From a virus (taxonomy: Duplodnaviria > Caudoviricetes), in the IMG/VR virus record IMGVR_UViG_3300021255_003058, positions 52,382-116,381 of that record: a stretch of DNA of 64,000 nt; one strand, given 5' to 3'. A model generated the notes under the pieces. The model saw only the letters and a program-made list of their open reading frames with translations. It was not told where the DNA came from and did not search any database. The first letter of the stretch is position 1, and every line of letters starts with the position of its first letter. The position numbers and the translations under genes are program-made. This document shows positions 2,717-62,079 of the stretch, piece by piece.

Positions 2717-2784
2717 ATAATGAATGTTTTTTTTATGTTACCATCCATACATAAATAATATAGTATCTTATTCAAAAAATTCAA
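2717..2784 (-). promoter_or_regulatory. Phage promoter plus ATGTAT hairpin cassette (copy 1)
   Basis: Minus strand TTGAAT-N15-CTATATT then ATTT-ATGTATGGATG-gtaacataaaaaaaa-CATTCAT-TATAATTGTA. Confidence 0.7.
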
Positions 2785-3216
2785 ATATTATATAAATTTC
2801 ATATAAAATTTATAAAACATATATTAAATATTTTTAGTTACGAATAATTCTACACCATCATATTCTTTAATAAAGTCCTCATAAGATATGATATCTACAT
2901 CAACCATATCCAATATTCCATCACCGCGGTCCTCCCATATTTCAATATCAATAGTATTATTATTACCGAGATAATATGAATTACCATACTCATCATCTAG
3001 ATGATGAGTAAAACGATTAGTCATCAAATATAAAAGGGCATCCTGAGAATTTATAAAACTTTTCATATTTATTTCTTTTTATAATATTTTTGGTCTTCAA
3101 TATACAATTCATTAACAATAAACATCTTACGAATAAGATATCCATTATCCGTAAATCCTTCAACAGTCCAATATTCTTTTGAACCTATTTTATATATTGT
3201 ATCGTTAATGTTAAAT

Positions 3217-3480
3217 TTACGCTTCATTTTCTTTCTTTTTGATAACTGCTAAAAATATATTTCTATCTGAAACTTTATATGAACGCTTCAAATCATCAAT
3301 TCCTGCCCCTTTATATTTTGCAGAAGGAACAACAGTGAACTTCTGATTACCACTTTTATCATAGTCAAATTTTACAACTGTTCCGAAAATAAAGTGTCCT
3401 TTAACCTTAATGAACACAGGATCTCCGAGATGCAGTTCATGACAAAAACTATCGTAAAAATTTTCAAATAATGTACTCAT
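3217..3480 (-). CDS. Hypothetical protein
   Basis: 87-aa ORF coupled to upstream ORF by 4-nt overlap. Confidence 0.65.
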   Translation of the reverse strand: MSTLFENFYDSFCHELHLGDPVFIKVKGHFIFGTVVKFDYDKSGNQKFTVVPSAKYKGAGIDDLKRSYKVSDRNIFLAVIKKKENEA

Positions 3481-3676
3481 ACAAATGCTTTATGTGAATC
3501 TCTATAACTGTCTGAATAACCTTGTGAATAACCTGTTTCCCAGCACTTCTGAAAATAGTTCTTTACAGCAGTTAACTGATATTCATTTAATTGGTTTTCA
3601 CAAACAGTATTCTGAATGAATTTATTGAATATTGACTCTACCTGTGCTTCGTATTTCATATTATTATGATATATAA

Positions 3677-3820
3677 TTAAACGTAAAACTCACGGAAAAA
3701 AGAACCAGGATAACGCTTATGTAATTCGCGCATTTCTTTACGACCGGGACTCATTGCCTGATGCCATTCACCGTTCTCAAGATAACGAACTTCGTACCAC
3801 TTAATTTTTTTCTTTGCCAT
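3677..3820 (-). CDS. Small hypothetical protein (47 aa, not in ORF track)
   Basis: MAKKKIKWYEVRYLENGEWHQAMSPGRKEMRELHKRYPGSFFREFYV*, GC-elevated, directly downstream of promoter cassette. Confidence 0.7.
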   Translation of the reverse strand: MAKKKIKWYEVRYLENGEWHQAMSPGRKEMRELHKRYPGSFFREFYV

Positions 3821-3842
3821 ATTATTATTCAATTTTATTACA

Positions 3843-3908
3843 ATATTAATTCAGTTTATTGTATTACTGAATACATAAATAATATAGAACATATTTTAAA
3901 AAATTAAA
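3843..3908 (-). promoter_or_regulatory. Phage promoter plus ATGTAT hairpin cassette (copy 2)
   Basis: TTTAAT-N15-CTATATT; 3843-3890 identical (48 bp) to 12157-12204; stem ATTCAG/CTGAAT. Confidence 0.7.
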
Positions 3909-3917
3909 TATTATTAA

Positions 3918-4058
3918 AAAAATTATGCTAATTTTTTAAAATTGCATTATTAGAAAAATTATGCTAATTTTTTAAAATTGCATTATTAGAAAAATTATGC
4001 TAATTTTTTAAAATTGCATTATTAGAAAAATTATGCTAATTTTTTAAAATTGCATTAT
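3918..4058. repeat. Tandem repeat, 36-bp unit x about 4
   Basis: AAAAATTATGCTAATTTTTTAAAATTGCATTATTAG; ATGCTA recurs at 3925, 3961, 3997, 4033; no spacers. Confidence 0.95.
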
Positions 4059-4153
4059 ATGTAATTTTTTACATACAACATGTAATATAATACATGAAAA
4101 ATATTTTAATTGTCAAAAATTTTTTATTTTTTATTAAAATATATATATATAAT

Positions 4154-4639
4154 ATGATATCAATTAAAGATTTTATACTTGAACATAATAATAAATTTAA
4201 TGTTAATATGTTAGTAAGTCAATATGATAAATCAGATTTATTAAAATTAAAAGAACATGATAAAACAACAATACATAATATTGAATTTGAAATTACATAC
4301 GTTAATCCAAAATATTATAAAGAAACACAATGTTCACCTATAAAAAATAAAGAATTAAAATATGGTTTATTTCAATTATTTTTATGGGATACTTGTGAAG
4401 AGTTAACAAATATGTATCCTGTACCAACAAATGTTAATAATAATGGTATTTATCCAAATTATTTTACTGATGGCAAAAATATATATGATATTGAAAATAA
4501 TTTAAAACTAGTTACAAAAAATTCAAAAGATAAATCACGAATTTTATGTCATGGCGGATATCGTTCTCCAGAAGGTAAATATTATTTATCAACAAATAAT
4601 TTAATTGATAAATCATTAAAAATTAAAGAATTATTATAA
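4154..4639 (+). CDS. Hypothetical protein (likely start MISIKDFILE)
   Basis: ORF 4094-4639; internal ATG at 4154 follows an AT-rich leader; terminator follows. Confidence 0.65.
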   Translation: MISIKDFILEHNNKFNVNMLVSQYDKSDLLKLKEHDKTTIHNIEFEITYVNPKYYKETQCSPIKNKELKYGLFQLFLWDTCEELTNMYPVPTNVNNNGIYPNYFTDGKNIYDIENNLKLVTKNSKDKSRILCHGGYRSPEGKYYLSTNNLIDKSLKIKELL

Positions 4640-4644
4640 TAAAC

Positions 4645-4672
4645 AAAGGGTTGTTTTACGACAACCCTTTTT
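4645..4672 (+). terminator. Intrinsic terminator
   Basis: AAAGGGTTGT-tttacg-ACAACCCTTT plus T-run. Confidence 0.8.
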
Positions 4673-4841
4673 ATAATATATTTTGTTTATAATTTAAATA
4701 TTATATAAAAAATAATAAGAAATAAATATAATTTATGTATTTTTTTATTAATATTTGTTAAAAGAATCTATTTTTTCTATATATAGTTATATTTTTATAT
4801 AATCAGAAACAATACAAAAATATATATAGTTTTTTATTTAT

Positions 4842-5963
4842 ATGAGTGTTACAGATGAAGAATTAATGGAAAGAGTATTAGCAGAACAAATTCCTGAAGC
4901 TCCAGAAGATGCACATCAAGGTGAAGATCACGAATCAGAAAAAGAAGCTTCTGTTGAAGAAGCACCAAGATCTGAAGCAGCAAAATATCTTGGTACAAAA
5001 TTGAATCATAAACCAGGTGATAATCCATTTGCTGACAAAGAGGCAGATAAAGAAATGATTGAAAAAAAAGGTCTTTCCCGCATTGGTGAAAACCTTAATA
5101 AAAATATTGAATATCGTGAAGGATGGTTACCAGTTGATATTGCGCTTTTAGGCAAGAGAGCAACATATTATCCTGAAGATTGGTCGTTCCGTATTCGTCC
5201 TGCAACTGTTGAAGCAATTCGTAACTGGTCAAATATTGATGATGAAAATCCAAATTCAGTAGATGAAGTTTTCAATGAAGTTATCAAGAGTTGTGTTGCT
5301 ATTGTTGGCCCAAGTGGACAACCAATTTCTTGGGGTAACTTGTCAGACTGGGATCGTTTCTTCTTCTTATGTCTTACCCGTGAATATACATTCCGTAACG
5401 GTGAGAGAAAGATTAAGTATACTGATTATTGTCCAGAATGTGATAATGAAATTGAATTTGAATTAAATTCACAATCATTAATGTACGACTTCCCTGATGA
5501 AGAAGTAATGAAGTATTATGATCGTGAGAATAGATGTTGGTATATCGACCCATCAGAATTTGGTATTGAAGGAGAAGAACCAATTCAATTGTATATTCCT
5601 ACACTTGAAAAGGATGCTGCAATTAAAGCATGGCTTATTGCTCGTCTTCAAGAAAATCGTAACTTCAAGATTGACCAAACATTCTTACGTTTTGTTGCAT
5701 GGATGACTCCAAAACTTTCAAAGGATGCAACTATTGCAGCACGTCAAATTAGAGAGCTTAACTTAAAATACAAGAGCTGGGATGAAGAGATGTTCTCATT
5801 TATGGATGATGTTATTCGTAATATTGTTGTTACACCTTCAAATAAATTGGTAATTAATTGTCCAATATGTGGAGAGGAGGTAACATCAAATATACGATTT
5901 CCGAACTCAATCAAGGAACTTTTCTCTTACGAATCAAAGTTCAAGAAATTCGGAAAGAAATAA
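4842..5963 (+). CDS. T4 gp26-like baseplate hub / tail assembly chaperone protein
   Basis: IRPATVE, L..WDRFFFL..REYT, two CPxC pairs (CPEC, CPIC), acidic N-terminus. Confidence 0.6.
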   Translation: MSVTDEELMERVLAEQIPEAPEDAHQGEDHESEKEASVEEAPRSEAAKYLGTKLNHKPGDNPFADKEADKEMIEKKGLSRIGENLNKNIEYREGWLPVDIALLGKRATYYPEDWSFRIRPATVEAIRNWSNIDDENPNSVDEVFNEVIKSCVAIVGPSGQPISWGNLSDWDRFFFLCLTREYTFRNGERKIKYTDYCPECDNEIEFELNSQSLMYDFPDEEVMKYYDRENRCWYIDPSEFGIEGEEPIQLYIPTLEKDAAIKAWLIARLQENRNFKIDQTFLRFVAWMTPKLSKDATIAARQIRELNLKYKSWDEEMFSFMDDVIRNIVVTPSNKLVINCPICGEEVTSNIRFPNSIKELFSYESKFKKFGKK

Positions 5964-6012
5964 ATATTCTATTTTATCTAAAGCTGAACAGGATATTTAT
6001 GATTCTTATTTA

Positions 6013-6309
6013 TTGTTAATTTATGCTCCATTTAGAATTGACACGGAGCAAATGTTGAAAAACTTTTTATATATATGTAAAGATTATCATATTCAGCCTT
6101 CTGAAATTAATCAGATGCCATATTATCAATATGAAATATATCTTGAAGAAATAAAAGCAATTCAAAAACAACAAGAAAAAGAGAACGAAAATCAAGAAAA
6201 ACAACAGGCGCAAATGATGAAAGGTATGAATCCTAATTCAATGATGAATAATATTAATAGAAATATGCCTAATATGAGTATGCCTAAGATTAATGTTCCA
6301 AAATTTTAA
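6013..6309 (+). CDS. T4 gp51-like hub assembly chaperone (possibly frameshift extension of upstream gene)
   Basis: KDYHIQPSEINQMPYYQYEIYLEEI motif; frame open from 5884, first ATG at 6052. Confidence 0.55.
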   Translation: MLIYAPFRIDTEQMLKNFLYICKDYHIQPSEINQMPYYQYEIYLEEIKAIQKQQEKENENQEKQQAQMMKGMNPNSMMNNINRNMPNMSMPKINVPKF

Positions 6310-6314
6310 CATAG

Positions 6315-6349
6315 AAAAAGCGAAGCTTATCAATAAGTTTCGCTTTTTT
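6315..6349. terminator. Bidirectional intrinsic terminator
   Basis: AAAAAGCGAAGCTTAT-ca-ATAAGTTTCGCTTTTTT between convergent genes. Confidence 0.75.
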
Positions 6350-6815: not shown

Positions 6816-6821
6816 ATTACA

Positions 6822-7556: not shown

Positions 7557-7881
7557 TTTAAATATTATCTAATCATAAATTATAAAAATAAAACAATTAA
7601 CAAACAAAATATTATAAATACCCAAAATAGACATCCTAATCCTTTAATTAAACCTTTCCATAGAAATTCAAACACATATTTAAATAATTCACATGCCCAG
7701 CCAAGAATACCTAAAAATACAAAAATTACTACTAATGATATTAAAACTTCTAAAGCAGATATAATAGCTGTCATATTCTATAAATTTTATATAAATTAAT
7801 ATAGAATATTATATATAAAATTCAAATATAATTCAAATTTCACATAAAATTTCATGTTATAAATGATAAATAATATATAAA

Positions 7882-8532: not shown

Positions 8533-8533
8533 A

Positions 8534-12156: not shown

Positions 12157-12222
12157 ATATTAATTCAGTTTATTGTATTACTGAATACATAAATAATATA
12201 GAACTTTTTATATAATATTCAA
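12157..12222 (-). promoter_or_regulatory. Phage promoter plus ATGTAT hairpin cassette (copy 3) upstream of ligase
   Basis: TTGAAT-N15-CTATATT; 48 bp identical to 3843-3890. Confidence 0.7.
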
Positions 12223-12223
12223 A

Positions 12224-12250
12224 AAGGTAGGAATTTAAATTCCTACCCTT
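12224..12250 (-). terminator. Intrinsic terminator
   Basis: GGTAGGAATT-t-AAATTCCTACC-type stem right after stop of 12251-13000, T-run on minus strand. Confidence 0.7.
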
Positions 12251-15349: not shown

Positions 15350-15386
15350 TACAAATATAATATAGTATTTAATTTTTAAATTTCAA
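15350..15386 (-). promoter_or_regulatory. Phage promoter, cassette-free form
   Basis: TTGAAA-N15-CTATATTATATTTGTA; same form at 16106-16141 and 38781-38817. Confidence 0.7.
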
Positions 15387-16247
15387 ATATATTATGAAAA
15401 TTTAAAGATAAGATCTCCAACTTGGACCTTTTACTAAATCTACAGTAACCCAAAGAGATCCACTTGTATCAATATTTGAAATATAGAAACAATCTACTTC
15501 CGCAAGAAATGGCAGATAATTGCCACGATTTATATGTTTGTCTCCATAAAACAATGTCGTAACTTCATCAAAAGCAACTCGAGCAGTTGAAAATGGCATT
15601 AAACCTTTTACATCTTTTGCTACTTTAATTGCTTCGCCATGACAATTGAAATTTGAATAAGGAACATTAATATGAACTTTAGTTTTCCCAAGTGCTTCTG
15701 CAATACCTTTAGTAATGGTATCAAGCTGATAACCTGTTGACCACATGCCATGTGAGACATATTTCTTCTTTAACTCTTCAATAGCTTCTGTTTTCTTTTT
15801 TCCAAATCTCATATTATCTATCGAATTTTGCATTTAACCCAAGTTCTTTCAGATATTTAATTACTTTTTTTGTATCATTTTCAGTAAGAGTTCCAATATG
15901 ATATTCATAAGATTCATTTGCTTTAATATTCCTATAAGAACAGTAATCATAAACGCTAAACATAGTTCCATCAGGCATCTGTGACCACCAATTTCTTTGT
16001 GTTTTATAATCATCAGATCCATTATGATTACCAAGAACCTTATTAATCTTAACTGCTGAATTTTTTACAATTCCAAAAAAGTAACCCATATTAAATTTAT
16101 ATTTTACAAATATAATATAGTATTTATATTTAAATTTTCAAATATAATTAAAAAAATAATATTATTTATCTTGTATTTAACATCTTTTAAATATTTTAAT
16201 TTTTATTTCATAAATTCTATATTGTATTATATTTATATGAGGTTTAT

Positions 16248-17979: not shown

Positions 17980-19095
17980 ATGAACATTTTAAAATCAAAT
18001 TTTGAAATAATTGAACAAAAATATGATGATTTATTAATTGATATGTTTCGTCATATAGAAATATGTGGACGAACTTGTTATAAATCTGAAGATAAGATAA
18101 CTGATACATCATATGAAAAGTTTGTCAAAATGCTTGAAGAAGCAGAACATGGTGCAATGCTTGAACATGGAACAGTTTATTTAACAATACCATTAGGAAC
18201 ACCAATAGATGATCCACAATATATGTGGAAACATGATATTGCAAGTTTCTTTTCAAAAAATAAGTATTCAGTAGTTAAAGAAAAGACCATCAACGAAACA
18301 GTTGATGTTGAAATTAAAGGCTACGGAATGCAAACACAAGCATCTGCTCATTTCTATTTTATTACAACAAATTGGAGAGTAATTTATGAAAATAGAGATA
18401 AATTGCTTTCTAAATATTGGCTTAACAATTTTCATATTGAAAAGGAATCATTAAAAGATTCAGTTTTACAATGGATGACCGAACCATCTGAAGAACATGA
18501 AAAACGATATACTGTAAGATTTACATATCATCTTGCTGTTGCTCGAGATATTAATAGACACCGTGTTCAATCAATAGGTGAAGAATCAACTCGTTATTGT
18601 AATTATTCAAAAGAAAAATTTGGAGCTGAATTAAATATTATTGAACCTGTTTTCTTTTCTGATTTAGCAAAGAAACGTATCAATTCAGAGAATCAATGGT
18701 CATTAAAAACAATGTGTAGATTAATTGCACAAGGACGAGAAAATGAAATGGATGATATTGATATGTGGAGATTTGTTAATTTAGCTTGTGAATTTGGATA
18801 TAAATATAATGTTGATGTATTCAAATGGACTCCACAACAAGCATCATTAATGTTGCCTCTTGATACAAAGACTTGTTCAGTACATACTGCATTTGCATCT
18901 GATTGGGAACATTTTTTTGCATTAAGAGCATTAGGAACAACTGGTGCGCCACGTCCATCAGCCAAAGAAGTTGCATGGCCATTGATGGAAGAATTTATTA
19001 AAAGAAATTATATACAATTAAATGATAAATTAAAAAATATATATTTAGAAATAAAAAATAAATATATAAATATAAATGATTATATTAGAAAGTAA
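17980..19095 (+). CDS. thyX: Flavin-dependent thymidylate synthase
   Basis: GRTCYKSE, HGAMLEH, RHRVQSIGEESTRY (RHRx7S motif), W.HFF.LR. Confidence 0.92.
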   Translation: MNILKSNFEIIEQKYDDLLIDMFRHIEICGRTCYKSEDKITDTSYEKFVKMLEEAEHGAMLEHGTVYLTIPLGTPIDDPQYMWKHDIASFFSKNKYSVVKEKTINETVDVEIKGYGMQTQASAHFYFITTNWRVIYENRDKLLSKYWLNNFHIEKESLKDSVLQWMTEPSEEHEKRYTVRFTYHLAVARDINRHRVQSIGEESTRYCNYSKEKFGAELNIIEPVFFSDLAKKRINSENQWSLKTMCRLIAQGRENEMDDIDMWRFVNLACEFGYKYNVDVFKWTPQQASLMLPLDTKTCSVHTAFASDWEHFFALRALGTTGAPRPSAKEVAWPLMEEFIKRNYIQLNDKLKNIYLEIKNKYININDYIRK

Positions 19096-27683: not shown

Positions 27684-27782
27684 ATAATGGAGTTTTTATA
27701 TTTAATTCATATGTTCATTAAAAACATGTTATATGTTAATTACCATACATAATAAATATAGTACATATAATAAAAAATTCAA
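27684..27782 (-). promoter_or_regulatory. Phage promoter plus long ATGTAT cassette (copy 4)
   Basis: TTGAAT-N15-CTATATT; ATGTATGG...ATAAAAACTCCATTAT. Confidence 0.65.
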
Positions 27783-28884
27783 ATATAATTCAAATTTCAT
27801 GTTATAAATGAAATAAAAATATTATATAAATAATTTCATTTATTTATAAATTATATTATTTATAAAATTTATAAAATTATAGTTTTATTGTTAATGTTAT
27901 GCATTCCCCAAATCTTGTAATTTCCTTTTCTTGTTTTATATTATATCCAATTGACTGTAATTGATTAATTACCCATATATCATCATCAGTTAATGTATTT
28001 ATTGTAGAAACAATTGTTGAATTATGATAATCACGAGCATTTAGTAAAATATCACGTATAATTTTAGAATTTGATTTTCCTAAAATATCAGTTAAAACTT
28101 TATTATTGTGTATTAACTGTTTCATTGTTTTAGCATCAAATTTTTCTAAAAATTCTTGTACTTTCTTATTAATCATAATTAATTATTTTTGAAGTTTTTA
28201 ATCTAATTGGACAAGTATTTTGAATTATTTTATAATCATACACTTCGATATAGTTTGATCCTTTGTATGATGTAACTCTTATTGGTTTTAAATTTAATTT
28301 TTTGAATCTTCTAACATCTCCATTACAATATATAAAATTGACAGTATCAGAATATTGTATTGTAGAATCTGGATATATAATTTCATACTCTACATATGCA
28401 GTTCCATTTTTTGCAATAATATCTGACGTTGCAAGACATATAATTCCAATTACAATACAAATAAAGCTAACACCAAAAAAATATTTCTTCATATTATTTC
28501 TTATTGATTAAAATATTGTACATTCTGTTTATGCTCTCTAATTGCCCTTGTGGAATTTCTTTATTTGCTTCAATTTGGTCGCCAATATCTTTCAAAAACC
28601 AAATAAGTTCATTTACTTTTTTTATGTTTCTCATATTAAATCATCTAAATAAGCCCATTCTACAATTTCATCAGAATCTACATTAGAATCAAATCTAAGA
28701 ATTTCTATATATTTATTTTCATATCTAACAACAATAATACTTCCTTCTTTTGGACATTGGAAATAGTCTCCAACATGCCAAAGGATTTTATATTTCTTTG
28801 TTTTTGGAGACATATTACTATATGATATTGCATTTCGATATTGATCATCGAATATAATAGATGTCTTAAAATCTTTTTTCATAA

Positions 28885-35860: not shown

Positions 35861-35924
35861 ATAATGAATGTTTTATGTTACCATCCATACATAAATAATA
35901 TAGAACATATCTTAAAAAATTAAA
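35861..35924 (-). promoter_or_regulatory. Phage promoter plus ATGTAT hairpin cassette (copy 5)
   Basis: TTTAAT-N15-CTATATT; ATGTATGGATG-gtaacataaaa-CATTCAT-TATATTTGTA, near identical to copy 1. Confidence 0.7.
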
Positions 35925-35929
35925 TAATA

Positions 35930-36253
35930 TTAAGATTTATTTTCTTCTTTTAATTTCTTAATATCTTCTTCATATTTTTTTAATAATGTTGTAAATCTTT
36001 CAGGTCTTGTTGGATTTACAAGTTTAGGAGCAATTGAAAATTTTAATGTTGTAATATCCCATCCTCGTCTTTCAAATTCTTTTTTTACATCATCAGTAAA
36101 AACATTTGAAAATATCCAACTCCCATCACAACTTCCTTGACACATCATTGATCATGATACAACTAAATCATAATTATGTTTGTCATCTTGATCATGACCC
36201 CAATAAACACGAAGTTTATCTTTGTTTTTAATCTTTAGAATCTTTTGTCGCAT
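35930..36253 (-). pseudogene. Small gene with in-frame TGA (36152-36154)
   Basis: MRQKILKIKNKDKLRVYWG...DLVVS*SMMCQGSC in one frame. Confidence 0.5.
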
Positions 36254-37211: not shown

Positions 37212-38946
37212 AGTGGTTTCTTTCTCTTTGGTAATTGTGATTCTTGTTCTTCCTCTTTTTCTTTTGCTAAATTAAAATCTTGCATATACCACACAAGAGA
37301 TTCTACAAGGTCTGTATCATCAAAAATATCAAACCAAGTATTCTTATTCCAATTAATCAATTGGTTTCTCTTATAAAAGTATTCATTGAAACTTTTCTGA
37401 AGATAATTGATGCACTTTGTACGAGTGAAGAATCTTGTAACAAATCCATCAAAGCAATCTTCAGCAGATAGCACTTCAAGTATTTGACGTGCCATTGTTC
37501 TTGCAATTTGCATTTTCTTATCTTTATTCATATAAATAGATATTAATATATTTGTAATATAGAAAAGTGCCAGTAATATATAAATTACCGGCATTTCCAT
37601 TAACATTATTTAAATTATTTCTCTTCAGGTTTATCTTTCAAATACTCTCTAATTTTTCCAATATACAAATCTAATGCTTTCTTGTTAAATTCGTGGCATT
37701 TCTGCATTGAATATAACATATTGCACCAAGATTTATATTTATCTTCCTCATCAGAATTGAATTGGACATAACTCAAAGCAGGACCATGATATGTGACATA
37801 ATTATAATCTTCAGTATATCTTATAATATATGTCCAAAGTTTGCCATCAACTGAGTATTGTAAATTACCATCTTTGTCTAATCGATGTTGAACTGGCCAG
37901 CATTTCTCATATTTATATTTGAAATTCTTATAATTTTTGAATATTTGTACTCCTAATATTCCAAGCATTATTCCAATTACTATAAAAAGTACAATTAAAT
38001 ATGCATTCATCTTATATTAATTTTATTAATTAAAAAATATTAAATTATGTTCATAACTTTTGTTTGATTTAATATTTCTCCACAACCATAACAATGATAA
38101 TAATCTTTGTCATATAAAATACAAAATTGACCAGGAGCAGCAGTTACAGGTATATCTGAAACTATCTTAACATCATAATCTGACCCATAAAAATATATCT
38201 TACCAGTGTACTTCTCAGGAGAATGACGAACCTTAAATGTTACATTACAAATAAAATTAGGTAATTATATATTTGTTGTCACAAATTTAGTTTAGATAAT
38301 TAATCTGGATATTCTGTGCAACCATGCAAATCATCGCAAACAGCACCAGCATCATACAGATAACAATAACCTCTGATTATTGGTTCTTTTACTCTTTCCG
38401 GTATACCTTTTGGAAAACATTTGACAAACGTATCATAAAGTTCTTTGTCAGTAATGTTACTTAAAAATTCTTTATCTGTCATATCTTTATTTTTGTTTAT
38501 TATATTTTAATCAAAATTCACTGAATTACCAATACTACGAACAACTTCTTTGATTGTCGGAATAAAATTACCTTCATTATAAATTCGTTTTGCAATCTGC
38601 TTAACATATTCAACGTCGGTTGAAAGAGATGCATTATTGATATCGCGAGCATAATCTGTGCAATCCCAGCCAGCGCCGTAAACAACATCTCCAATGTTCA
38701 AACCAAATGAATTATCTTCATTAATACATTCCAACGAAATCAAATATAAGTTCTTAAACATATTTATTATTTTTATTAAATACAATTATAATATAGTAAA
38801 ATATAAATAATATTCAAAAATTATTAAATAAAATCAAAATATTTTAATGTATAAGATAATATATAAATAGTAATGTAATATTAGTATGCTTAAATATTAA
38901 TAGATTATTTTTAATTATATAAAATTTATACAATACTTTATATAAT

Positions 38947-39909
38947 ATGAAATACCTTAGAAATTTAAATAATCATAATGATTATATTGCATTTATTGAG
39001 AGTACAGATTTTGCTGAAATACATGCAGAAAAAAATGCAGTGGTTAGTTATTGTAAAACGGAAGAACATGTTCATTATAATCCTTATATTCCACCATTAC
39101 CACAATTTTTAGATATTCTTTATTCAGATACAAATGGCAACTTAAGTTTTACATCAGAAGTACTTCCTGCATCAGAAGGTAAGACTCCTATTGGGCTTTG
39201 TGTTGTATCAACTGGATTCTTTGGTACTAATGAGAAAGCGCGTTGGATGTCACTTAAATATATGTACTGTGAAACTCCTGAAGCGGGCTCATTAACATTT
39301 CAAAATATGATGTGGGGTAATCATGGTACTGATATAAATACCATAGACAACATACAGACTGCATATAATGGAGGAGATATGTGGGGTTGTTTAACTGCTG
39401 ATTGGATAACAAATACATCTAGTAAGATTCCATCATTGTTTGATGCTAATGGTAACTGGAACTTAACTGAACTTGGAGATGTCAATCGATTTACTGCAAC
39501 AGATATAGATGGTAAGAACAAGACCGAAAAGATACTTGCAACTGCAACAGCACAATCTGATTGGATGACAGCTACAGCAATTACGAATAATAGTGGTGCA
39601 GGTTATGCACCAGCTGCTTGTTGTTGCGCAAGATATCATACATTAGGTACACAGTCAGGAGATTGGTATCTTGGTGCAGCAGGTGAAATGAGTATGATAA
39701 TTGTACAAAAACAACAAATTAATGCTAAGTTAACAGAGATAGCTAATGTATATGCTAATGATTGTATTCGTACGTTTGGTAATAATTACTATCAGACTTC
39801 TACTGAATATAATACGACTGACATATACAGGGCCAATGCTCAGCGTGGTAGTCTCGACAACACAGGCAAGAATGGCAATATGGGTGTTATTGCTATGCTT
39901 AGATATTAA
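38947..39909 (+). CDS. CLec-fold putative receptor-binding protein, paralog of the DGR target
   Basis: Shares RWMSLKYMY, Y.TLGT..GDWYL...GE, L.EI..VY..DC with 50432-51673. Confidence 0.8.
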   Translation: MKYLRNLNNHNDYIAFIESTDFAEIHAEKNAVVSYCKTEEHVHYNPYIPPLPQFLDILYSDTNGNLSFTSEVLPASEGKTPIGLCVVSTGFFGTNEKARWMSLKYMYCETPEAGSLTFQNMMWGNHGTDINTIDNIQTAYNGGDMWGCLTADWITNTSSKIPSLFDANGNWNLTELGDVNRFTATDIDGKNKTEKILATATAQSDWMTATAITNNSGAGYAPAACCCARYHTLGTQSGDWYLGAAGEMSMIIVQKQQINAKLTEIANVYANDCIRTFGNNYYQTSTEYNTTDIYRANAQRGSLDNTGKNGNMGVIAMLRY

Positions 39910-44163: not shown

Positions 44164-45216
44164 ATGGCTAAAAAAGACGTACTTGAAAAGGAATTTGGAA
44201 TAGATAATGAACTTGAATCTGTGTTGAAGGAAATAAAAAAGCAATACGGAGAAGGCACCGTTATGCTTTTAGGAGAATCAGACGTAATGGATATTGAAGC
44301 TATTCCTTCCGGTTCATTGTCTTTAGATGTTGCTTTAGGTATTGGTGGATATCCTAAAGGAAGAATTGTTGAAATATATGGACCTGAAAGTTGCGGTAAG
44401 ACAACACTTGCAATACATGCTGTTGCTGAAGCACAAAAGATGGGTCTTAAAGCTGCATACATTGATGCAGAAAATGCATTTGATAGAGATTATGCAGCAG
44501 CTCTTGGAGTTGATGTAGATACATTATTATTTGCTCAACCTGACTGTGGTGAAGACTGTTTAGAAATTGCAACAAAGTTAATAGGTTCCGGTAAAATAGG
44601 AATTTGTGTTATTGACTCTGTTGCTGCATTAATACCTAAAGCAGAATTAGAAGGTGCTATGGGAGATGCAAGAATTGGGCTTCAAGCAAGATTAATGTCA
44701 CAAGCATTACGTAAGATGGTAGGTATTATCAAAAAGTCAAATTGCTTATGTATATTCATTAATCAGATTAGAGAAAAAATTGGTGTATTATTTGGTAATC
44801 CTGAAACAACAACTGGTGGTAATGCTTTAAAATTCTATGCATCAATAAGATTAGAAGTAAGAAAATCAACTGCTGTTAAAGATGGAGAAGAAGCAATTGC
44901 AAACTTAACAAAAGTAAAGGTTGTAAAAAATAAATGCGCACCACCATTTAGAAAAGCAGAATTTGAAATTGTGTTTGGTAAAGGCATTAATAGATTTGGA
45001 GAAATAATAGACAAATCAATTGAATATGATATCATACACAAATCAGGATCTTGGTTCAGTTATGGAGAAGTAAAACTTGGACAAGGCAAACAAGCAGTCA
45101 TTGATTTATTAAATGATAATCCTGAATTATTGGAAGAAATAGAACAAAAAGTTATAAATGTTATTTCAAACAAACCTAAAGATGGCGCTTATGAATTAGA
45201 TGATATATTAAAATAA
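44164..45216 (+). CDS. recA: Recombinase RecA (bacterial type)
   Basis: [66 protein letters not shown]. Confidence 0.98.
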
Positions 45217-53927: not shown

Positions 53928-53929
53928 AA

Positions 53930-55600: not shown

Positions 55601-55625
55601 AAAGCTGTACATTGAGTACAGCTTT
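55601..55625 (-). terminator. Intrinsic terminator
   Basis: AAAGCTGTAC-attga-GTACAGCTTT, same stem as 56063-56088. Confidence 0.75.
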
Positions 55626-55983
55626 ATAAATTTAATTTATTATTATTTCCTTTAAGTTTTTCTGCTTGTTCTGACGTTGCAATTATAGCATATTTATCTG
55701 GATTCTTTTTATAATTGTTATCTAAAATTCCTAAATATTTATCTTTAAAATATGATAATAATTCATATCTAATATCGTTAACATAAACCCACGTATGTTG
55801 ATCTCCACTATAACGGCCTACATCTTTAGATACTGCTTTTTGTACTTTAGCAGTTTCTATACTTCAATTTTTGTGTTTGAATCTTTCTTTAAAGGATTTT
55901 TATCTAACCATTAATATTGTAACTTCATCACCTTTCTTAAGAATACCTTTCATTGGAAATTTTAAAAATTCATTCATAAACAT
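55624..55983 (-). pseudogene. Gene with two apparent frameshifts
   Basis: Own promoter (56018-56046) and terminator; coding-like text switches frame near 55910 and 55860. Confidence 0.5.
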
Positions 55984-56062
55984 ATTGAAAATTTCATTTT
56001 AATAAATTATATATAAAAATATAGTATATAATATTTGAAAATTCAAACAAGTTTAAAAAATA

Positions 56063-56088
56063 AAAAGCTGTACTTAAGTACAGCTTTT
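56063..56088 (-). terminator. Intrinsic terminator
   Basis: AAAAGCTGTAC-ttaa-GTACAGCTTTT. Confidence 0.75.
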
Positions 56089-56091
56089 ATT

Positions 56092-56649: not shown

Positions 56650-56734
56650 AACTAATAAATATTTTTTATTTCTTATATATAAAAATAAATAAAAGATCTG
56701 TCTTTAATATAATTAAAAGATTTCATTTATAAAA

Positions 56735-57946: not shown

Positions 57947-57952
57947 TTAATT

Positions 57953-59845
57953 TTAATACTTAAGCATATCTTTTCTTACATTAGAATCCAGTTTATTAAA
58001 CCATTTTCTAAGCATACTATCTGCTGCTTCATCTTTTTTGAAATATAAAAACTTAGGATCTTGATACATTTCTTTAGATTCTTTATCTGATAGACCACCA
58101 AGTCCTTTTACATATTTATGTGAATATCCCTTAAGTTTCTTCTCTGCTTCTTTAAATTCTTCCATTGTATAGAATTTCTTACAATCTTTTCCTTTACGAG
58201 ATATTACAATAGGTGATATATTTCGACAAACTATATTTTTCTCAAAAAGTTCAGGCCAGTTGTTAAAGAATAATAAAAGCAATGCAGCAATCTTGTCACC
58301 ATCTGGATCAGCATCAGTTGATATAACAATCTTACCGAAGTTTAAATCATTTATATCAAATTCTTTACCCCATCTAAGTCCAAGAACTGTTACAATATCA
58401 TTAAACACTTCATTCCTCATTATCTGTACTGGAGTCATACCATAGCAATTCAATGGTACACCTCTCATAATCAGACCTGCTTGTATCTCTGGATTTCTTC
58501 CACCTCTTAGACCGGACTTTGCAGAATCTCCCTCAAATATCCAAAGCTGTCGCTCATTCTTTTTTCGAGATGAGCAAGTAATATATTTGTCTGGACGTTT
58601 CAATCCTTTATTGGTTTCTCTATTTATTTTGCGAAGTGCTTTTTCATCTTCAGCTGCAGTCTTTTGTTTATACCAATCTAATACTAATTGTACTATTTCT
58701 GATTTTTGACACTTTTTCAAAAAATCATCAGGAATATTAAATTTAATATTTGGATCTTTATAAAAATTTTCAACAGGAACACTTAATTCTTCTTTTGTTT
58801 GACTTGTATATATAGGATTTGATATATCAAATATACCAAAAATTCCATATTTACCATCTATTGATTTATTAGTTAATTCTATTTTATGTTTCTTTTTTAA
58901 ATATTCAATTATAATATCTCCAATTGGTTTACGAACTGCTTTTATATGTGTTCCTTTTGAACACTCAGCACCATTTACAAATGCTACATCTATTCCGCAA
59001 TCAGGACATACCCAAATTTGTTTTTGATTATCTTTTAATGAAATTATAGTTTTTTTATCATAAAAATCAGAATATAAATCCATATATTCTTCAAATTTTT
59101 TAAATTTCCAATTAATTTTATTTTTTTCATCTTTTGTTTTTACAATAAAATTAATTGATAATCCTAAATTTGCAGCTGCTGCATCTATACATCTTTTATG
59201 TAAAATTTTTATAAAATCATTAGTTAATCCATATTTACTTTGTTCAAATTTATCAAAATCAATAAAAAATGTAGTTTTTGTATAATGTTCATTACATTTT
59301 TCTATTTTTGGTTCTGATTTACTATTCATATTATTAGCCCATTCAACTAATAATTTATTTTTTTTATCTGCAGATTCAATAATAAATTTTTTTGAAAATA
59401 TATTACTTAAAACAGAACCTAACCCATTTGTTCCTACTATATTTCTATCATCATTATCATCATAATTTGAAGAAGTTCTTAATTGTCCAAATATAAATTC
59501 AGGAACATATACTCCTGCTTCTTTATGTTTAACTATTGGAATTCCACCATTATCTTTAATAGTTATTGAATTATCATCTTTATTTATAATTACATCAATA
59601 TTATTTAATCCCATATTATCTTTGCGTCTATATTCATCACATGAATTTGATAATATTTCATCAAATAATTTTAACATAGCTGGTGAATATGTTAAACATT
59701 TCATCATCATTTTATTTTCATTTTCATTATATACTAATAATGATGTTTCTTCTTCTTTAATAGAACCAATATACATAGTAGGTCTATGTAAAATATGTTC
59801 TAATTCTGATAATGCAGTATATTTTTGTTCAATTGTTTTTTTCAT
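57953..59845 (-). CDS. Type IIA topoisomerase, ATPase/TOPRIM subunit (T4 gp39+60/GyrB-like)
   Basis: EHILHRPTMYIGS, FDEILSN, DNGGIP, TSSNY, GTNGLG, EGDSA, RGVPLN, TDADPDG, KGLG. Confidence 0.96.
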   Translation of the reverse strand: MKKTIEQKYTALSELEHILHRPTMYIGSIKEEETSLLVYNENENKMMMKCLTYSPAMLKLFDEILSNSCDEYRRKDNMGLNNIDVIINKDDNSITIKDNGGIPIVKHKEAGVYVPEFIFGQLRTSSNYDDNDDRNIVGTNGLGSVLSNIFSKKFIIESADKKNKLLVEWANNMNSKSEPKIEKCNEHYTKTTFFIDFDKFEQSKYGLTNDFIKILHKRCIDAAAANLGLSINFIVKTKDEKNKINWKFKKFEEYMDLYSDFYDKKTIISLKDNQKQIWVCPDCGIDVAFVNGAECSKGTHIKAVRKPIGDIIIEYLKKKHKIELTNKSIDGKYGIFGIFDISNPIYTSQTKEELSVPVENFYKDPNIKFNIPDDFLKKCQKSEIVQLVLDWYKQKTAAEDEKALRKINRETNKGLKRPDKYITCSSRKKNERQLWIFEGDSAKSGLRGGRNPEIQAGLIMRGVPLNCYGMTPVQIMRNEVFNDIVTVLGLRWGKEFDINDLNFGKIVISTDADPDGDKIAALLLLFFNNWPELFEKNIVCRNISPIVISRKGKDCKKFYTMEEFKEAEKKLKGYSHKYVKGLGGLSDKESKEMYQDPKFLYFKKDEAADSMLRKWFNKLDSNVRKDMLKY

Positions 59846-60882
59846 ATATTATTTAATTCTTCTATATTCCAAATTTCTATATAATTTAAATTATTTTGCT
59901 TTGCAATATTTCTTTTATTTACATCTCTTATTGTCCATGTTATTATAGCATTATTATAATATAAAGAATTTTTTTCTTTCCATTGATTTAATATAGATAT
60001 ATCATTAATATTATTTTCATCAAATGGATGACCACCATGTGACCAATGATAATTACATTCAATAAATAAATCTAATGAAGGTATATATAAATCACATTGA
60101 AATGGATATCTTTTTTTATCTTTATATTGAAATATTACATCAGGATATTTTTCTTTAATAATATTAAATGAATCTATTTCAATTTTTGATTTATTTAATG
60201 TATTATTTTTTCTTTTTGTTTCAATTCCTTTATCAATTGCATCTTTACAATTAGCCTTTAATTTACATTCTTTAGTTTTGTAATAACAATCAACTCCATA
60301 ATGTTCAATTAATGTTTTCTTAATTTTATCTTTTATAATATTTGATTGATTAGGATAAATTGTACCATATTTTTGTAATGATGTTTGATTAACATGTTCT
60401 TTCCAATGGGTTGATTTTGCAATATTATCAACATTATATTTTTCTAACATTGTTTCTATTGCTTTATCTTTAATTTTTTTATCACATAATGGAGAAAACC
60501 CTCCATATTTTTTAATGTTTGTATTTTTTTGTTTTTCTTTTATATTATATGATTGTGCTGGTGTGTATGTTCCATATCGAATTAATGATGTTTGATGAAA
60601 TTTATTTACTTTTAATATATTCATGCATTCATTACAACATGCACTTGGATAAAATCTAAATTTGATAGAATATTTTAACGGTTTACCACAATTATTACAT
60701 TTTGGTAAACTATCAATATTATGTTTTAATCTAAATAAACTTTCTTTACATTTATCATAAATGTCTTCTACAGAAAAATCATTAAATCTATTTAACAAAT
60801 AATTAATAATTTTTATATCTCTATTTTTCCATTTTTTTCTATTATTCGTTTCACAATATTTTATAACATCTTCATCAGACAT
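59842..60882 (-). CDS. Putative free-standing homing endonuclease (KYG repeats plus PD-(D/E)xK/Vsr-like domain)
   Basis: CNNC..CC zinc motif, repeated K.T...KYG, C-terminal SKIE...CDLYIP..DLFIECN.HWSH. Confidence 0.7.
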   Translation of the reverse strand: MSDEDVIKYCETNNRKKWKNRDIKIINYLLNRFNDFSVEDIYDKCKESLFRLKHNIDSLPKCNNCGKPLKYSIKFRFYPSACCNECMNILKVNKFHQTSLIRYGTYTPAQSYNIKEKQKNTNIKKYGGFSPLCDKKIKDKAIETMLEKYNVDNIAKSTHWKEHVNQTSLQKYGTIYPNQSNIIKDKIKKTLIEHYGVDCYYKTKECKLKANCKDAIDKGIETKRKNNTLNKSKIEIDSFNIIKEKYPDVIFQYKDKKRYPFQCDLYIPSLDLFIECNYHWSHGGHPFDENNINDISILNQWKEKNSLYYNNAIITWTIRDVNKRNIAKQNNLNYIEIWNIEELNNI

Positions 60883-61227
60883 AATATAAATTCTTTATTT
60901 ATTAATAATAAAACAAATGTCATATTTTTTACTATAAAAATAAAAAAATTATTTACAATGTTTTGTTTTTATTATGTAACAGTCTTCAATTTTCATTCCA
61001 ATAATTTCCATTAATTGTTGTTTCATTGACTGAAATTCTTCTTCTTCAAATTCGTTAATTTTTCTCCAAAAGAACAAATGATGCCGCTCATAAGCAACAT
61101 AATGAGGTTCATTATATACCTCTGTTTTTATTATCTTATAATCCTTCATAACTATACTTATTCATAGGTAAGCTTACCTATTATAATTAAATATAGTTAT
61201 GAAGGACAAAATTTTCTAAATTAAGAA

Positions 61228-61959
61228 TTAAGCAAAACGCCATTCATTTACAAGAGCAATATTGTTTCCAGCTAGCTCGTATTTCTCAATAAGAATCTGC
61301 TTGTTCTTTACTCGCTTTGCATTTCCTTTCTTGTCAATTGGGAGTCCCCAAACCATATCTCGATAATAACCTTCCTTAAATTTTTCAAAACGAAGTGTAA
61401 TCTCAAGATCTTTAATGAAATATTCACCCATATAATTCAGGTTTTTTTTCATTGTAACAATAAAGGGTATACCTTTTTCAAGTCGAGCCTTGCCCTGTAA
61501 CTCACGTTCCTCCTGTTCTTTACGGGCTTTTACATCCTCAGGAGAAATCATATGTTTTTCATTTGTTGATGTATATGTTATAATCTCATAACCCTCGGGA
61601 ATACAAATAGCAGCAATGTTCTCCATCTGCTCGGTTGTTGCACAGTTATTATAAAACCACATCATATAACTGTAATCAGTACAAGCGCTGAACAGAATAC
61701 CGCTGTACTTACCAACATGGAACTTATTTGGCTCAATGATACGTTTTTCGTAATCCCAGCTGCGTGTACGACCACGAAGATCTTCACAATACTCAGCATC
61801 TGGGTATTTCGCAAGAGCTTTTTCCTTATTCATCGAAGCATTGCGAAGAAATACATAGTGCTCAGTCTTATAGTTTACGCCACGAGCGTCGGTACGATAG
61901 GAAACTGAATAATCCCAAACTGTGTAATACTTGCGAGCAAAACCAATTTTAAGTGCCAT
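61228..61959 (-). CDS. Hypothetical protein
   Basis: 243-aa ORF, GC-elevated, first gene after promoter cassette. Confidence 0.75.
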   Translation of the reverse strand: MALKIGFARKYYTVWDYSVSYRTDARGVNYKTEHYVFLRNASMNKEKALAKYPDAEYCEDLRGRTRSWDYEKRIIEPNKFHVGKYSGILFSACTDYSYMMWFYNNCATTEQMENIAAICIPEGYEIITYTSTNEKHMISPEDVKARKEQEERELQGKARLEKGIPFIVTMKKNLNYMGEYFIKDLEITLRFEKFKEGYYRDMVWGLPIDKKGNAKRVKNKQILIEKYELAGNNIALVNEWRFA

Positions 61960-61982
61960 ATCAATTTATTTTTGTTACAAAT

Positions 61983-62079
61983 ATAATGGAGTTTTTATGT
62001 TATAATATGTCTTTATTAACATATGAATAAATATAACTACCATACATAAATAATATAGAACTTTTATTAAAAAATTAAA
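61983..62079 (-). promoter_or_regulatory. Phage promoter plus long ATGTAT hairpin cassette (copy 6)
   Basis: TTTAAT-N15-CTATATT; nested stems ATGG.AG/CTCCAT, GTTATA/TATAAC, ATATGT/ACATAT. Confidence 0.7.

What the first reader, a model, noticed from the sequence alone, without database searches (positions are those of the whole stretch)
2717..62047. Six promoters carry an inserted ATGTAT-hairpin/minigene cassette; three equivalent promoters are empty
Seen (minus strand): empty promoters read CTATA-TTAT-AWTTGTA (15350, 16106, 38781). Filled ones read CTATA-TTAT-[TTATGTAT...stem-loop...]-TTAT-AWTTGTA or a close variant (2717-2752, 3847-3876, 12161-12190, 27684-27750, 35861-35892, 61983-62047). 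Inserts differ in sequence and length (about 30-65 nt) but keep 5' ATGTAT, a closing stem (ATGGATG/CATTCAT, ATTCAG/CTGAAT, ATGG.AG/CTCCAT) and an unpaired ATAAA(A) just before the 3' arm. Each also opens a tiny ORF near the predicted start site: MYGW* (x2), MYSVIQ* (x2), MYGN*, MYGSYIYSYVNKDIL*. Inference: a possibly undescribed cis-regulatory module, such as a nut/put-like antitermination site, a repressor-binding leader, a leaderless minigene attenuator, or a miniature insertion element with TTAT duplication.
Basis: partly seen in the sequence, partly recalled or inferred. Interest (0 to 1): 0.75.

Follow-up and report, generated by a model that had tools for sequence, protein, structure and literature searches.

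The report
Hairpin cassette at phage promoter start sites
A giant gut or rumen phage carries one highly repeated early promoter, and about half its copies hold a short hairpin-forming insert exactly where transcription should begin. The insert is a conserved, previously undescribed RNA leader module that moves between promoters, and its function is still unknown.

Summary
The window is the 3' 64 kb of a 116-kb fragment of a low-GC jumbo phage. Its nearest GenBank relatives are Prevotella Lak megaphages.

- **Promoter class:** AATATTTGAA-N~12-CTATATTAT-ATTTGTAAT occurs 17 times in the record, always on the minus strand.
- **Cassette:** eight copies (six in the window) carry a 34-69 nt insert precisely between CTATATTAT and ATTTGTA.
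- **Anatomy:** TTATGT, a 7-10 bp stem, an A-rich loop (AAYATAAAA) and T(T/A)AT.
- **Rarity in relatives:** 1 of 37 promoters (376-kb relative), 1 of 17 and 1 of 6. Four filled promoters here have empty orthologues.
- **Location:** the cassette occurs nowhere except at this promoter position.
- **Structure:** four stem versions keep pairing through changes on both sides, and G·U pairs fit only the transcribed strand.
- **Conservation:** cassettes are identical in contigs whose genes are about 75-80% identical.

Best reading: an RNA stem-loop starting within 0-2 nt of the predicted transcript 5' end. It is probably copied among homologous promoter-leader units by recombination, and probably acts as a 5'-end protective or factor-binding hairpin.

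The minigene reading is not supported, and antitermination remains possible. There is no Rfam match and I found no matching paper. An earlier first-stage note of this scan flagged the type-A copies.

The parts
61983..62049 (-). Cassette type C with a nested second hairpin (67 nt): TTATGT + ATGG(T)AGTT ... AACATAAA + AACTCCAT + TAT
   Evidence: -9.3 kcal/mol. The orthologous G001 promoter at 156393 is empty.
62050..62092 (-). Promoter (-33 TTTAAT, -7 CTATATTAT) driving the 243-aa gene and the topoisomerase II operon
   Evidence: PWM score 39.4; topoisomerase II by PHROGs.
35861..35894 (-). Cassette type A (34 nt): stem ATGGATG/CATTCAT with one G.U pair, loop GTAACATAAAA
   Evidence: -4.6 kcal/mol, z = -2.6. 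Identical copy at record position 39582. The G001 orthologue (74% aa) at 266563 is empty.
35895..35937 (-). Promoter of the class
   Evidence: PWM score 37.7.
27684..27752 (-). Cassette type C with a different nested hairpin (ACATGT...ACATAT), 69 nt; the basal stem is weakened by an A.C mismatch
   Evidence: z = +0.8. The same nested insert occurs in A- and C-stem cassettes of other contigs.
27753..27795 (-). Promoter variant CTATATTTA
   Evidence: PWM score 31.6.
12159..12192 (-). Cassette type B (34 nt): stem ATTCAGT/ACTGAAT, loop AATACAATAA
   Evidence: -4.3 kcal/mol, z = -4.2. The G002 ligase promoter at 18545 is empty.
12193..12235 (-). Promoter of the NAD-dependent DNA ligase gene; an intrinsic terminator hairpin overlaps its -33 region (GGTAGGAAT..ATTCCTACC+T5, starting at 12247 and running to about 12219)
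3845..3878 (-). Cassette type B, identical to the copy at 12159-12192
   Evidence: The G001 orthologue at 63991 is empty.
3879..3921 (-). Promoter of the class
   Evidence: PWM score 40.8.
2717..2754 (-). Cassette type A with four extra A in the loop (38 nt)
2755..2797 (-). Promoter of the class
   Evidence: PWM score 39.6.
15350..15399 (-). Empty promoter: CTATATTAT directly followed by ATTTGTAAT; drives an HNH/NUMOD-like gene
16105..16154 (-). Empty promoter (CTATATTAT+ATTTGTA)
38781..38830 (-). Empty promoter (CTATATTAT+AATTGTA)
7789..7838 (-). Further promoter of the class (CTATATTAA) with no cassette and no TTGTA

Best explanation
The cassette is a transcribed leader module. It is a short RNA stem-loop with a variable, covarying stem and a conserved A-rich loop (AAYAUAAAA).

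**Where it sits.** It lies at the very start of transcripts from a highly repeated early promoter-leader unit of a clade of Lak-related jumbo phages, whose hosts are probably Bacteroidota. The promoter has the Bacteroidota layout: TTTG, 19 nt, then TATATTAT standing in for TAnnTTTG. Transcription should start at the conserved G or A of TGTA, 5-7 nt further on. The cassette keeps this TGTA, so its stem begins 0-2 nt from the RNA 5' end. After the hairpin the normal leader of about 20 nt resumes.

**How it spreads.** The cassette is not fixed at given genes. It is gained and lost at identical positions of non-orthologous promoters. The likely mechanism is homologous recombination or gene conversion, using about 45 bp of promoter on one side and the ATTTGTAATCAAAC leader on the other. 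No transposase is needed.

**What it does.** Most likely it acts in cis on the transcript, as a 5'-terminal hairpin that shields the 5' end from 5'-end-dependent decay, that a phage or host factor recognises through the loop, or both.

**Shown:** the anatomy, the exclusive position, the presence/absence at orthologous promoters, pairing kept between stem types, and conservation across diverged genomes.

**Inferred:** the start site, the transcript-level action, the recombination mechanism and the stabilising role.
For: 1. **Exact, exclusive position.** Every copy in G000-G003 and in about 45 viral and metagenome loci follows CTATATTAT. Arm and loop words and covariance model R1 find no copy elsewhere in 0.84 Mb.
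2. **Empty is the norm.** G001 has 37 promoters on one strand, 36 of them empty, with T4-G5-T6-A7 conserved in 27-33 of 36. The cassette keeps TGTA at the same distance.
3. **Leader length fits the inferred start.** The median is 25 nt from the motif to the ATG, which gives a 5' UTR of about 21 nt if transcription starts at G5. The modal 5' UTR in Bacteroides thetaiotaomicron is 23 nt, and its promoter consensus is TTTG/TAnnTTTG (PMC7366714).
4. **Bacteroidota host is plausible.** There is no Shine-Dalgarno sequence before the start codons, and the best GenBank relatives are Prevotella Lak phages at 51% aa identity on topoisomerase II.
5. **Gain and loss.** Four filled promoters have empty orthologues in G001 or G002. 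One promoter that is empty here and in G001 precedes a homologous gene (43% aa, possibly a paralogue) whose G002 promoter carries a tandem pair.
6. **The hairpin is a kept feature.**
   - Stems A (ATGGATG/CATTCAT), B (ATTCAGT/ACTGAAT), C (ATGG(T)AGTT/AACTCCAT) and D (ATATTAGATT/AATCTAATAT) differ at most positions on both sides, yet all pair.
   - C and D differ by paired substitutions and a paired insertion.
   - The orthologous copies in L248 and L332 differ at three cassette positions. All three are C/T opposite a G, so the change is G-C to G.U.
   - The G.U pairs work only on the transcribed strand.
7. **Conservation.** A, B and C cassettes are identical in contigs whose alignable DNA is 72-85% identical to G000.
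8. **Modules recombine.** One promoter backbone (ATATTTAATTTTTTAA.ATATGTT) carries A or B cassettes. One promoter+A+leader unit precedes four unrelated genes (L018/L040, L036, L299, L311). Tandem arrays and nested inserts also exist.
9. **Precedent.** 5'-terminal stem-loops stabilise bacterial mRNAs (Emory, Bouvet and Belasco 1992, as listed in PMC3997798).
Against: - The transcription start is inferred and not mapped.
- The hairpins are weak (-4 to -6 kcal/mol). Several copies have eroded or deleted 3' arms: record position 45020, G003:156907, L047, L324 and L436. The individual copy is therefore dispensable.
- Within a stem type, pair-preserving and pair-breaking substitutions are about equally frequent, which is what transitions alone would give.
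- The formal pair count on the model-fitted alignment is not above its shuffles: 85% of cells paired against 84%, with one pair changed on both sides. That alignment mixes stem registers.
- A pure stabiliser would not need a conserved loop.
- One tandem cassette precedes a tRNA-like RNA whose leader would be trimmed off.
- The 5' flank TTTATGT is complementary to the loop ACATAAA. The model does not explain this, because the flank lies upstream of the inferred start. The pairing could not be tested, since TTATGT was part of the search pattern.
Confidence: 0.5

Rival explanations
1. The cassette is a selfish or neutral promoter-embedded insertion. The hairpin segment has no role for the phage. 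It persists because it is copied between the many homologous promoter units by recombination, or by an unknown hairpin-specific enzyme, and because it keeps the start-site context and so does no harm.
For: - Patchy distribution: 8 of 17, 1 of 37, 1 of 17 and 1 of 6 promoters.
- No conservation at orthologous promoters between G000 and G001/G002.
- Decayed copies, tandem arrays and nested inserts.
- Within a stem type, pair-preserving and pair-breaking substitutions are about equal in number.
- Downstream genes are unrelated to one another.
Against: - Cassettes are identical across genomes that are 72-85% identical in alignable DNA.
- The loop motif is kept while the stems are wholly replaced, with paired changes.
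- G.U pairs are specific to the transcribed strand.
- No Y1 transposase is present in four genomes, and there are no terminal inverted repeats.
- Some closer relatives keep the cassette at the same locus (L295/L323, L248/L332, L018/L040).
Confidence: 0.22
2. The cassette is a promoter-proximal antitermination or processivity site, in the manner of lambda nut boxB or HK022 put. The nascent hairpin, alone or with a phage protein bound to its A-rich loop, modifies RNA polymerase so that it reads through terminators in long early operons.
For: - The position, immediately after an early promoter.
- The conserved A-rich loop on a variable stem resembles the logic of boxB.
- The copy at 62058 heads a unit of about 6 kb that runs into two terminators (56088 and 55625). 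A topoisomerase gene lies beyond them, with no promoter of this class of its own.
- One tandem copy heads an untranslated structured RNA. Ribosomal RNA operons use leader antitermination signals in that situation (textbook knowledge).
Against: - There is no boxA-like element, and the flanks are those of every empty promoter.
- No match to any Rfam family.
- No NusG-like gene in four genomes.
- 36 of 37 early promoters of the nearly complete relative do without the cassette.
- The ligase gene is promoter-proximal, and no terminator was found between its promoter and the gene.
- The stems are far weaker than those of put.
Confidence: 0.13
3. The cassette is a leaderless minigene or leader peptide. 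Transcription would start at the A of ATGTAT, and translation of the 3-15 codon ORF would regulate the downstream gene.
For: - Every intact copy opens with ATG TAT and reaches a stop within 3-15 codons.
- An A two bases upstream of the inferred start could serve as an alternative start.
Against: - TGTA is equally conserved in empty promoters, and ATATGTA occurs there too.
- The peptides share only M-Y(-G). Their length and stop position are not conserved.
- The type D reading frame runs on into the next promoter.
- There is no terminator/antiterminator alternative.
- 5' UTRs shorter than 10 nt are rare in Bacteroides, at about 3.7% (PMC7366714).
- One cassette pair precedes a non-coding RNA.
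Confidence: 0.05
4. The cassette acts at the DNA level, for example as an operator for a dimeric regulator, an extruded cruciform, or a recognition or immunity site for a nuclease that targets the promoter core.
For: - The inverted repeat has arms about one helical turn apart.
- The insert splits the conserved CTATATTAT/ATTTGTAAT junction, which could destroy a nuclease site.
- The 7-nt complementarity between the flank TTTATGT and the loop ACATAAA would matter only in DNA, or in read-through RNA.
Against: - The arm sequences differ completely between types while staying complementary, so no fixed half-site exists.
- G.U pairs would be A.C mismatches on the other strand.
- The stems are too short and too AT-rich for a stable cruciform.
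Confidence: 0.07

Closest known systems
PeSL (promoter-early stem-loop) mobile regulatory cassettes of T4-type phages (Arbiol et al. 2010, PMC2839356; Comeau et al. 2014, PMC4122927)
   Same: - A conserved early promoter joined to a stem-loop, repeated many times in a large lytic phage.
- Associated with insertion, deletion and replacement of small genes.
- Proposed to spread by recombination between the repeated units.
- One true terminator-plus-promoter composite exists here at 12193-12247.
   Different: - In PeSLs the stem-loop lies just upstream of the promoter and serves as the terminator of the preceding gene (PMC4122927).
- Here the hairpin lies downstream of the -7 box, at the transcript start.
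- It is AT-rich and weak, has a conserved loop, and is optional within an otherwise identical promoter unit.
5'-terminal stabiliser stem-loops (ompA and papA 5' UTRs; Emory, Bouvet and Belasco 1992, cited in PMC3997798). The 5' stem-loop of T7 class III transcripts is a further example, from my own knowledge.
   Same: A hairpin predicted to begin 0-2 nt from the RNA 5' end, followed by an ordinary unstructured leader.
   Different: - The start site is not mapped.
- The stems are weaker.
- The loop sequence is conserved.
- The element is a portable insert present at only some copies of one promoter.
Lambda nut (boxA + boxB) and HK022 put antitermination RNAs
   Same: A promoter-proximal RNA hairpin of an early phage transcript, with a purine/A-rich loop on a stem that varies.
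   Different: - No boxA is present.
- The loop is 7-12 nt, not a GNRA-like pentaloop.
- It is a single weak hairpin, not the two stable put stem-loops.
- No N-like or NusG-like partner was identified.
- Most early promoters lack it.
Small hairpin repeats of bacteria (REP/REPIN with RAYT; Correia elements; MITEs)
   Same: Short, multi-copy, hairpin-forming, transcribed inserts that are gained and lost and can sit in leaders.
   Different: - It is found only at one exact position of one promoter class.
- There are no terminal inverted repeats and no clear target duplication.
- No Y1/RAYT gene is present in four genomes.
- It occurs in phages rather than in a host chromosome.

Membership tests
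PeSL (T4-type promoter-early stem-loop) | Stem-loop located immediately upstream of the -35 box, acting as terminator of the upstream gene | tested here: not met
   The cassette hairpin lies after the -7 box. The PeSL layout is taken from PMC4122927.
PeSL (T4-type promoter-early stem-loop) | Conserved early promoter unit repeated before many small, variable genes and linked to indels between related phages | tested here: met
   There are 17, 37 and 17 copies in G000, G001 and G002. The same promoter-cassette-leader unit precedes unrelated genes.
Lambda nut / N-type antitermination site | boxA sequence next to a boxB hairpin with a 5-nt GNRA-like loop | tested here: not met
   The flanks are pure A/T promoter and leader sequence, shared with empty promoters. 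The loops are 7-12 nt.
HK022 put and other curated cis-regulatory RNAs (Rfam 15) | Match to a curated covariance model | tested here: not met
   No hit at gathering score over the whole window. At E up to 10 around two cassettes the only hits were two chance ones, at E = 2 and E = 8.6, on the opposite strand.
5'-terminal mRNA stabiliser hairpin | Stem begins within a few nucleotides of the triphosphate 5' end | tested here: inconclusive
   Promoter geometry and the conserved TGTA predict a start at G5 or A7, which is 0-2 nt before the stem. No start-site data exist.
5'-terminal mRNA stabiliser hairpin | Longer RNA half-life with the hairpin than without it | not testable with these tools
   Needs reporter or decay assays.
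IS200/IS605-type or REP/RAYT hairpin elements | Y1 (HUH) transposase in the genome | tested here: not met
   PF01797 is absent from G000-G003, while the control genomes score. A host-encoded enzyme cannot be excluded.
MITE | Terminal inverted repeats and a target-site duplication that differs from site to site | tested here: not met
   The arms are subterminal, preceded by TTATGT. The flanking TTAT/TAAT goes with the cassette type and not with the site.
Leader-peptide or minigene attenuator | Conserved peptide or regulatory codons, plus alternative terminator/antiterminator folds | tested here: not met
   Only M-Y(-G) is shared. One weak hairpin is present with no alternative fold.
Bacteroidota sigma-A promoter (TTTG at -33, TAnnTTTG at -7) | TTTG, 19-21 nt, then a TAnnTT.. 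box | tested here: met
   TTTG(AA), 19 nt, then TATATTAT in most copies; some copies have TTTA. The consensus is from PMC7366714. Recognition by the host sigma factor is inferred.

The most novel reading that the evidence does not exclude
The cassette is a new kind of portable RNA control element. It inserts itself exactly at the transcription start of one promoter class, and a dedicated phage or host factor reads its conserved loop (AAYAUAAAA). That would switch the fate of early transcripts (processivity, decay or timing) in Bacteroidota megaphages. In effect it would be a movable nut-like or stabiliser module whose copy number differs between phage lineages.
Probability: 0.2. Interest if true: 0.8.

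Novelty: new variant of a known kind. Interest (0 to 1): 0.55.

Why it matters
- Almost nothing is known about how Lak-like megaphages of gut and rumen Bacteroidota control transcription.
- This work defines their early promoter-leader unit. It also defines a compact, portable leader hairpin that one lineage has spread to half of its early promoters.
- If the hairpin changes RNA stability or read-through, it would be a natural, transferable expression part for Bacteroides and Prevotella engineering.
- It would also be an example of regulatory sequence spreading by recombination between promoters, rather than by transposition.
- If it has no effect, it is still a clean case of a selfish insert confined to transcription start sites.

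Tried and rejected
- **Rfam:** nothing at gathering thresholds over the window, and nothing meaningful at permissive thresholds around two cassettes.
- **Megablast of 20 kb against GenBank phages:** no match.
- **Type C 3' half as a pattern:** no copy with a different 5' half.
- **Bacterial genome scan:** one decayed copy on a 6.8-kb contig binned with a 'Clostridia' MAG, probably a phage contig, plus one chance hit. This gave no host information.
- **Covariance model R1:** found no further copies in G001-G003.
- **Pair count on the model-fitted alignment A2:** not better than shuffles. The single consensus cannot hold the four stem registers, so I argue from the individual stem types and say so.
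- **First 50 kb of Lak-A1:** lacks the promoter motif.
- **Y1 transposase and NusG domains:** absent from four genomes.
- **ARAGORN and Rfam on the RNA gene behind the L017 tandem cassette:** no call. I describe it only as tRNA-like, from its sequence.
- **A second promoter inside the cassette:** considered and rejected, because there is no TTTG at the right distance from the downstream TATATTTG.
- **An H-type pseudoknot between TTTATGT and the loop:** considered and rejected, because linkers of 0, 3 and 2 nt look too short on steric grounds (my own reasoning, not tested).


Full report
**What the window is.** The window is bases 52382-116381 of a 116,381-bp IMG/VR virus record, which CheckV rates 44% complete. 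Its GC content is 27%. It encodes both subunits of T4-type topoisomerase II, an NAD-dependent DNA ligase, a reverse transcriptase and a sigma-like protein. The closest GenBank phages by the topoisomerase large subunit are the Prevotella Lak megaphages, at 51% aa identity. Start codons are preceded by A/T-rich sequence with no Shine-Dalgarno motif. Both points fit a Bacteroidota host.

**Checking the observation.**
- CTATATTAT occurs 13 times in the window against 3.8 expected.
- The 17-mer CTATATTATTTATGTAT occurs seven times in the record, once with a mismatch, always on the minus strand. The reversed control gives none.
- A weight matrix built over positions -34 to +9 finds 17 promoters in the record, all on the minus strand, plus one much weaker hit (score 16.4) on the plus strand that I do not count. 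Their consensus is AATATTTGAAtttttt-N~10-CTATATTAT.
- Eight promoters are followed by TTATGTAT plus a hairpin. Six are in the window and two lie upstream of it. One of the upstream copies has lost its 3' arm through a 14-nt deletion between TAAT repeats.

**Anatomy.** The cassette runs TTATGT, 5' arm, loop, 3' arm, T(T/A)AT, and the normal ATTTGTAAT leader then resumes. Stem types in the window:

| Type | Stem | Loop or note |
|---|---|---|
| A | ATGGATG/CATTCAT, one G.U pair | GTAACATAAAA |
| B | ATTCAGT/ACTGAAT | AATACAATAA |
| C | ATGG(T)AGTT/AACTCCAT | carries an extra internal hairpin in both window copies |

- Predicted energies for the simple forms are -4.3 to -6.2 kcal/mol, with z-scores of -2.2 to -8.7. 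The two long forms are not better than shuffles.
- No Rfam family matches.

**The promoter and the likely start site.**
- TTTG, 19 nt, then TATATTAT matches the Bacteroidota sigma-A layout of TTTG at -33 and TAnnTTTG at -7 (PMC7366714).
- A nearly complete relative, G001 (376 kb, 98% complete), has 37 such promoters, all on one strand.
- In its 36 empty copies the bases after the motif read A-T-T-T-G-T-A-A. T4, G5, T6 and A7 are present in 33, 27, 32 and 33 copies respectively.
- The cassette begins T-T-A-T-G-T-A-T and so keeps this TGTA. The normal spacing after a -10-type box also puts the start at G5 or A7. That inference rests on general knowledge of sigma-70-family promoters, not on data.
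- The median distance from the motif to the start codon is 25 nt. This gives a 5' UTR of about 21 nt, close to the 23-nt mode measured in B. thetaiotaomicron.
- On this reading the hairpin begins 0-2 nt from the RNA 5' end, and the ATG of the 'minigene' straddles the start.

**Is it an insert?** Yes, relative to the common state.
- Cassettes occupy 1 of 37 promoters in G001, 1 of 17 in G002 (a tandem pair) and 1 of 6 in G003 (truncated), against 8 of 17 here.
- The genes behind four filled promoters have homologues behind empty promoters:
  - the 62058 gene, against G001:156393
  - the 35903 gene, against G001:266563 (74% aa)
  - the 3887 gene, against G001:63991
  - the ligase, against G002:18545
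- Conversely, the HNH-like gene behind the empty 15365 promoter has a G002 homologue (43% aa, possibly a paralogue) behind the tandem cassette.
- Arm and loop words, and a covariance model, find the cassette nowhere else in 0.84 Mb of four genomes.

**Wider family.** Exact-pattern scans recovered about 10 IMG/VR contigs of 8-435 kb and about 35 metagenome contigs with the same promoter plus cassette. These contigs are 72-85% identical to G000-G003 where they can be aligned. Yet many carry cassettes identical to types A, B or C. New forms appear:
- a fourth stem, type D (ATATTAGATT/AATCTAATAT, loop ACATAAA; -6.2 kcal/mol, z = -8.7)
- ATGGATG/CATCCAT, where the G.U pair becomes G-C
- an A-U to U-A flip
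- tandem arrays (B+A, C+C, and D then C, each behind its own promoter)
- a second hairpin (ACATGT..ACATGT) nested at the same loop position in A-stem and C-stem cassettes

**Evidence for a selected RNA hairpin.**
- Between types, the arms are replaced on both sides while the AAYATAAAA loop stays. Types C and D differ by two paired substitutions and a paired insertion.
- The orthologous copies in L248 and L332 differ at three cassette positions, all C/T opposite G.
- G.U pairs are frequent and would be A.C mismatches on the other strand.

**Evidence for caution.**
- Within a type, pair-breaking G-to-A or G-to-T changes are about as common as pair-preserving ones.
- Several copies are decayed.
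- The tool's pair count on the model-fitted alignment is not above its shuffles, partly because one consensus cannot hold four stem registers.

**How it spreads.**
- No Y1 transposase is present and there are no terminal inverted repeats.
- The flanking TTAT/TAAT belongs to the cassette type and not to the site.
- Each cassette is flanked by about 45 bp of promoter and 10-20 bp of leader, and both are repeated dozens of times per genome.
- The same promoter backbone carries A or B cassettes. The same promoter+A+leader unit precedes four unrelated genes.
- Recombination or gene conversion between promoter units therefore suffices. This is the logic proposed for PeSL cassettes of T4-type phages, although there the stem-loop lies upstream of the promoter (PMC4122927).

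**What it does.**
- A transcript-level action in cis fits the strand-specific pairing, the fixed position at the RNA start and the unchanged downstream leader.
- I favour a 5'-end hairpin that protects the transcript or is recognised through its loop.
- The conserved loop points to a binding partner rather than a bare physical block.
- Antitermination is possible but lacks boxA, a NusG-like partner or any need at 36 of 37 promoters in G001.
- A translation-linked role is weakened by the tandem cassette in L017. It precedes an RNA with acceptor-like ends (GGAGTAG...CTACTCCA) and two T-arm-like segments, which ARAGORN and Rfam do not call.

**Unexplained.** The 7 nt just before the stem (TTTATGT) are complementary to the loop (ACATAAA). 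Type B keeps this with one bulge, and the AATAT loop variants keep it with a G.U pair. If the start is at G5 this pairing cannot form in the primary transcript. It could matter in read-through RNA, in the second unit of tandem arrays, or in DNA. It could not be tested because TTATGT was part of every search pattern.

**Verdict.** The feature is real and non-random. It is best described as an undescribed, portable leader hairpin of a repeated early promoter in Lak-related jumbo phages. It is a new variant of the 'mobile regulatory cassette' and '5' leader hairpin' kinds, and its function is unproven.

Noticed in passing
window 63830-63851: The promoter in front of the sigma-like gene (62568-63782, minus strand) has its CTATATTAT box as one arm of a perfect palindrome, CTATATTAT-TCTT-ATAATATAG. 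The box therefore reads the same on both strands. This could be an operator or a divergent promoter pair.
   Followed up: no
window 12219-12247, minus strand: The intrinsic terminator GGTAGGAAT..ATTCCTACC+T5 overlaps the -33 region of the ligase promoter. This is a true PeSL-like terminator/promoter composite, and here it additionally carries a B cassette.
   Followed up: partly
L017:3683-3800 (also L349): Behind a tandem B+A cassette lies a structured RNA gene of about 118 nt. It has tRNA-like acceptor ends and two T-arm-like segments, and neither ARAGORN nor Rfam calls it. It may be one of the tRNA-shaped Y-RNA-like genes that other notes of this scan report in this phage group.
   Followed up: partly
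L248:7330-7480 and L332:1100-1250: Two complete promoter+cassette units stand in tandem, 66 nt apart (type D, then type C), in front of one gene. The 3' arm of the D hairpin runs into the upstream A/T-rich part of the second promoter.
   Followed up: partly
window 27684-27752; L289:3019-3094; L301:1315-1389; L349:696-734 region: The same insert of about 33 nt, with its own ACATGT palindrome hairpin, sits at one position of the loop (TAACATA|..|TAAAAAC) in cassettes with different basal stems. Either a second level of insertion has occurred, or cassettes recombine with one another.
   Followed up: partly
window 55625-56088, minus strand: Two strong terminators with near-identical stems (AAAGCTGTAC..GTACAGCTTT) lie 460 nt apart, between the two topoisomerase II subunit genes. 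No promoter of this class precedes the second subunit.
   Followed up: no
window 2590-2749, minus strand: A 55-codon ORF (MDGNIKK...) starts at the second ATG inside the type A cassette and runs through the leader. It has no homologue in G001-G003 and is probably spurious.
   Followed up: partly
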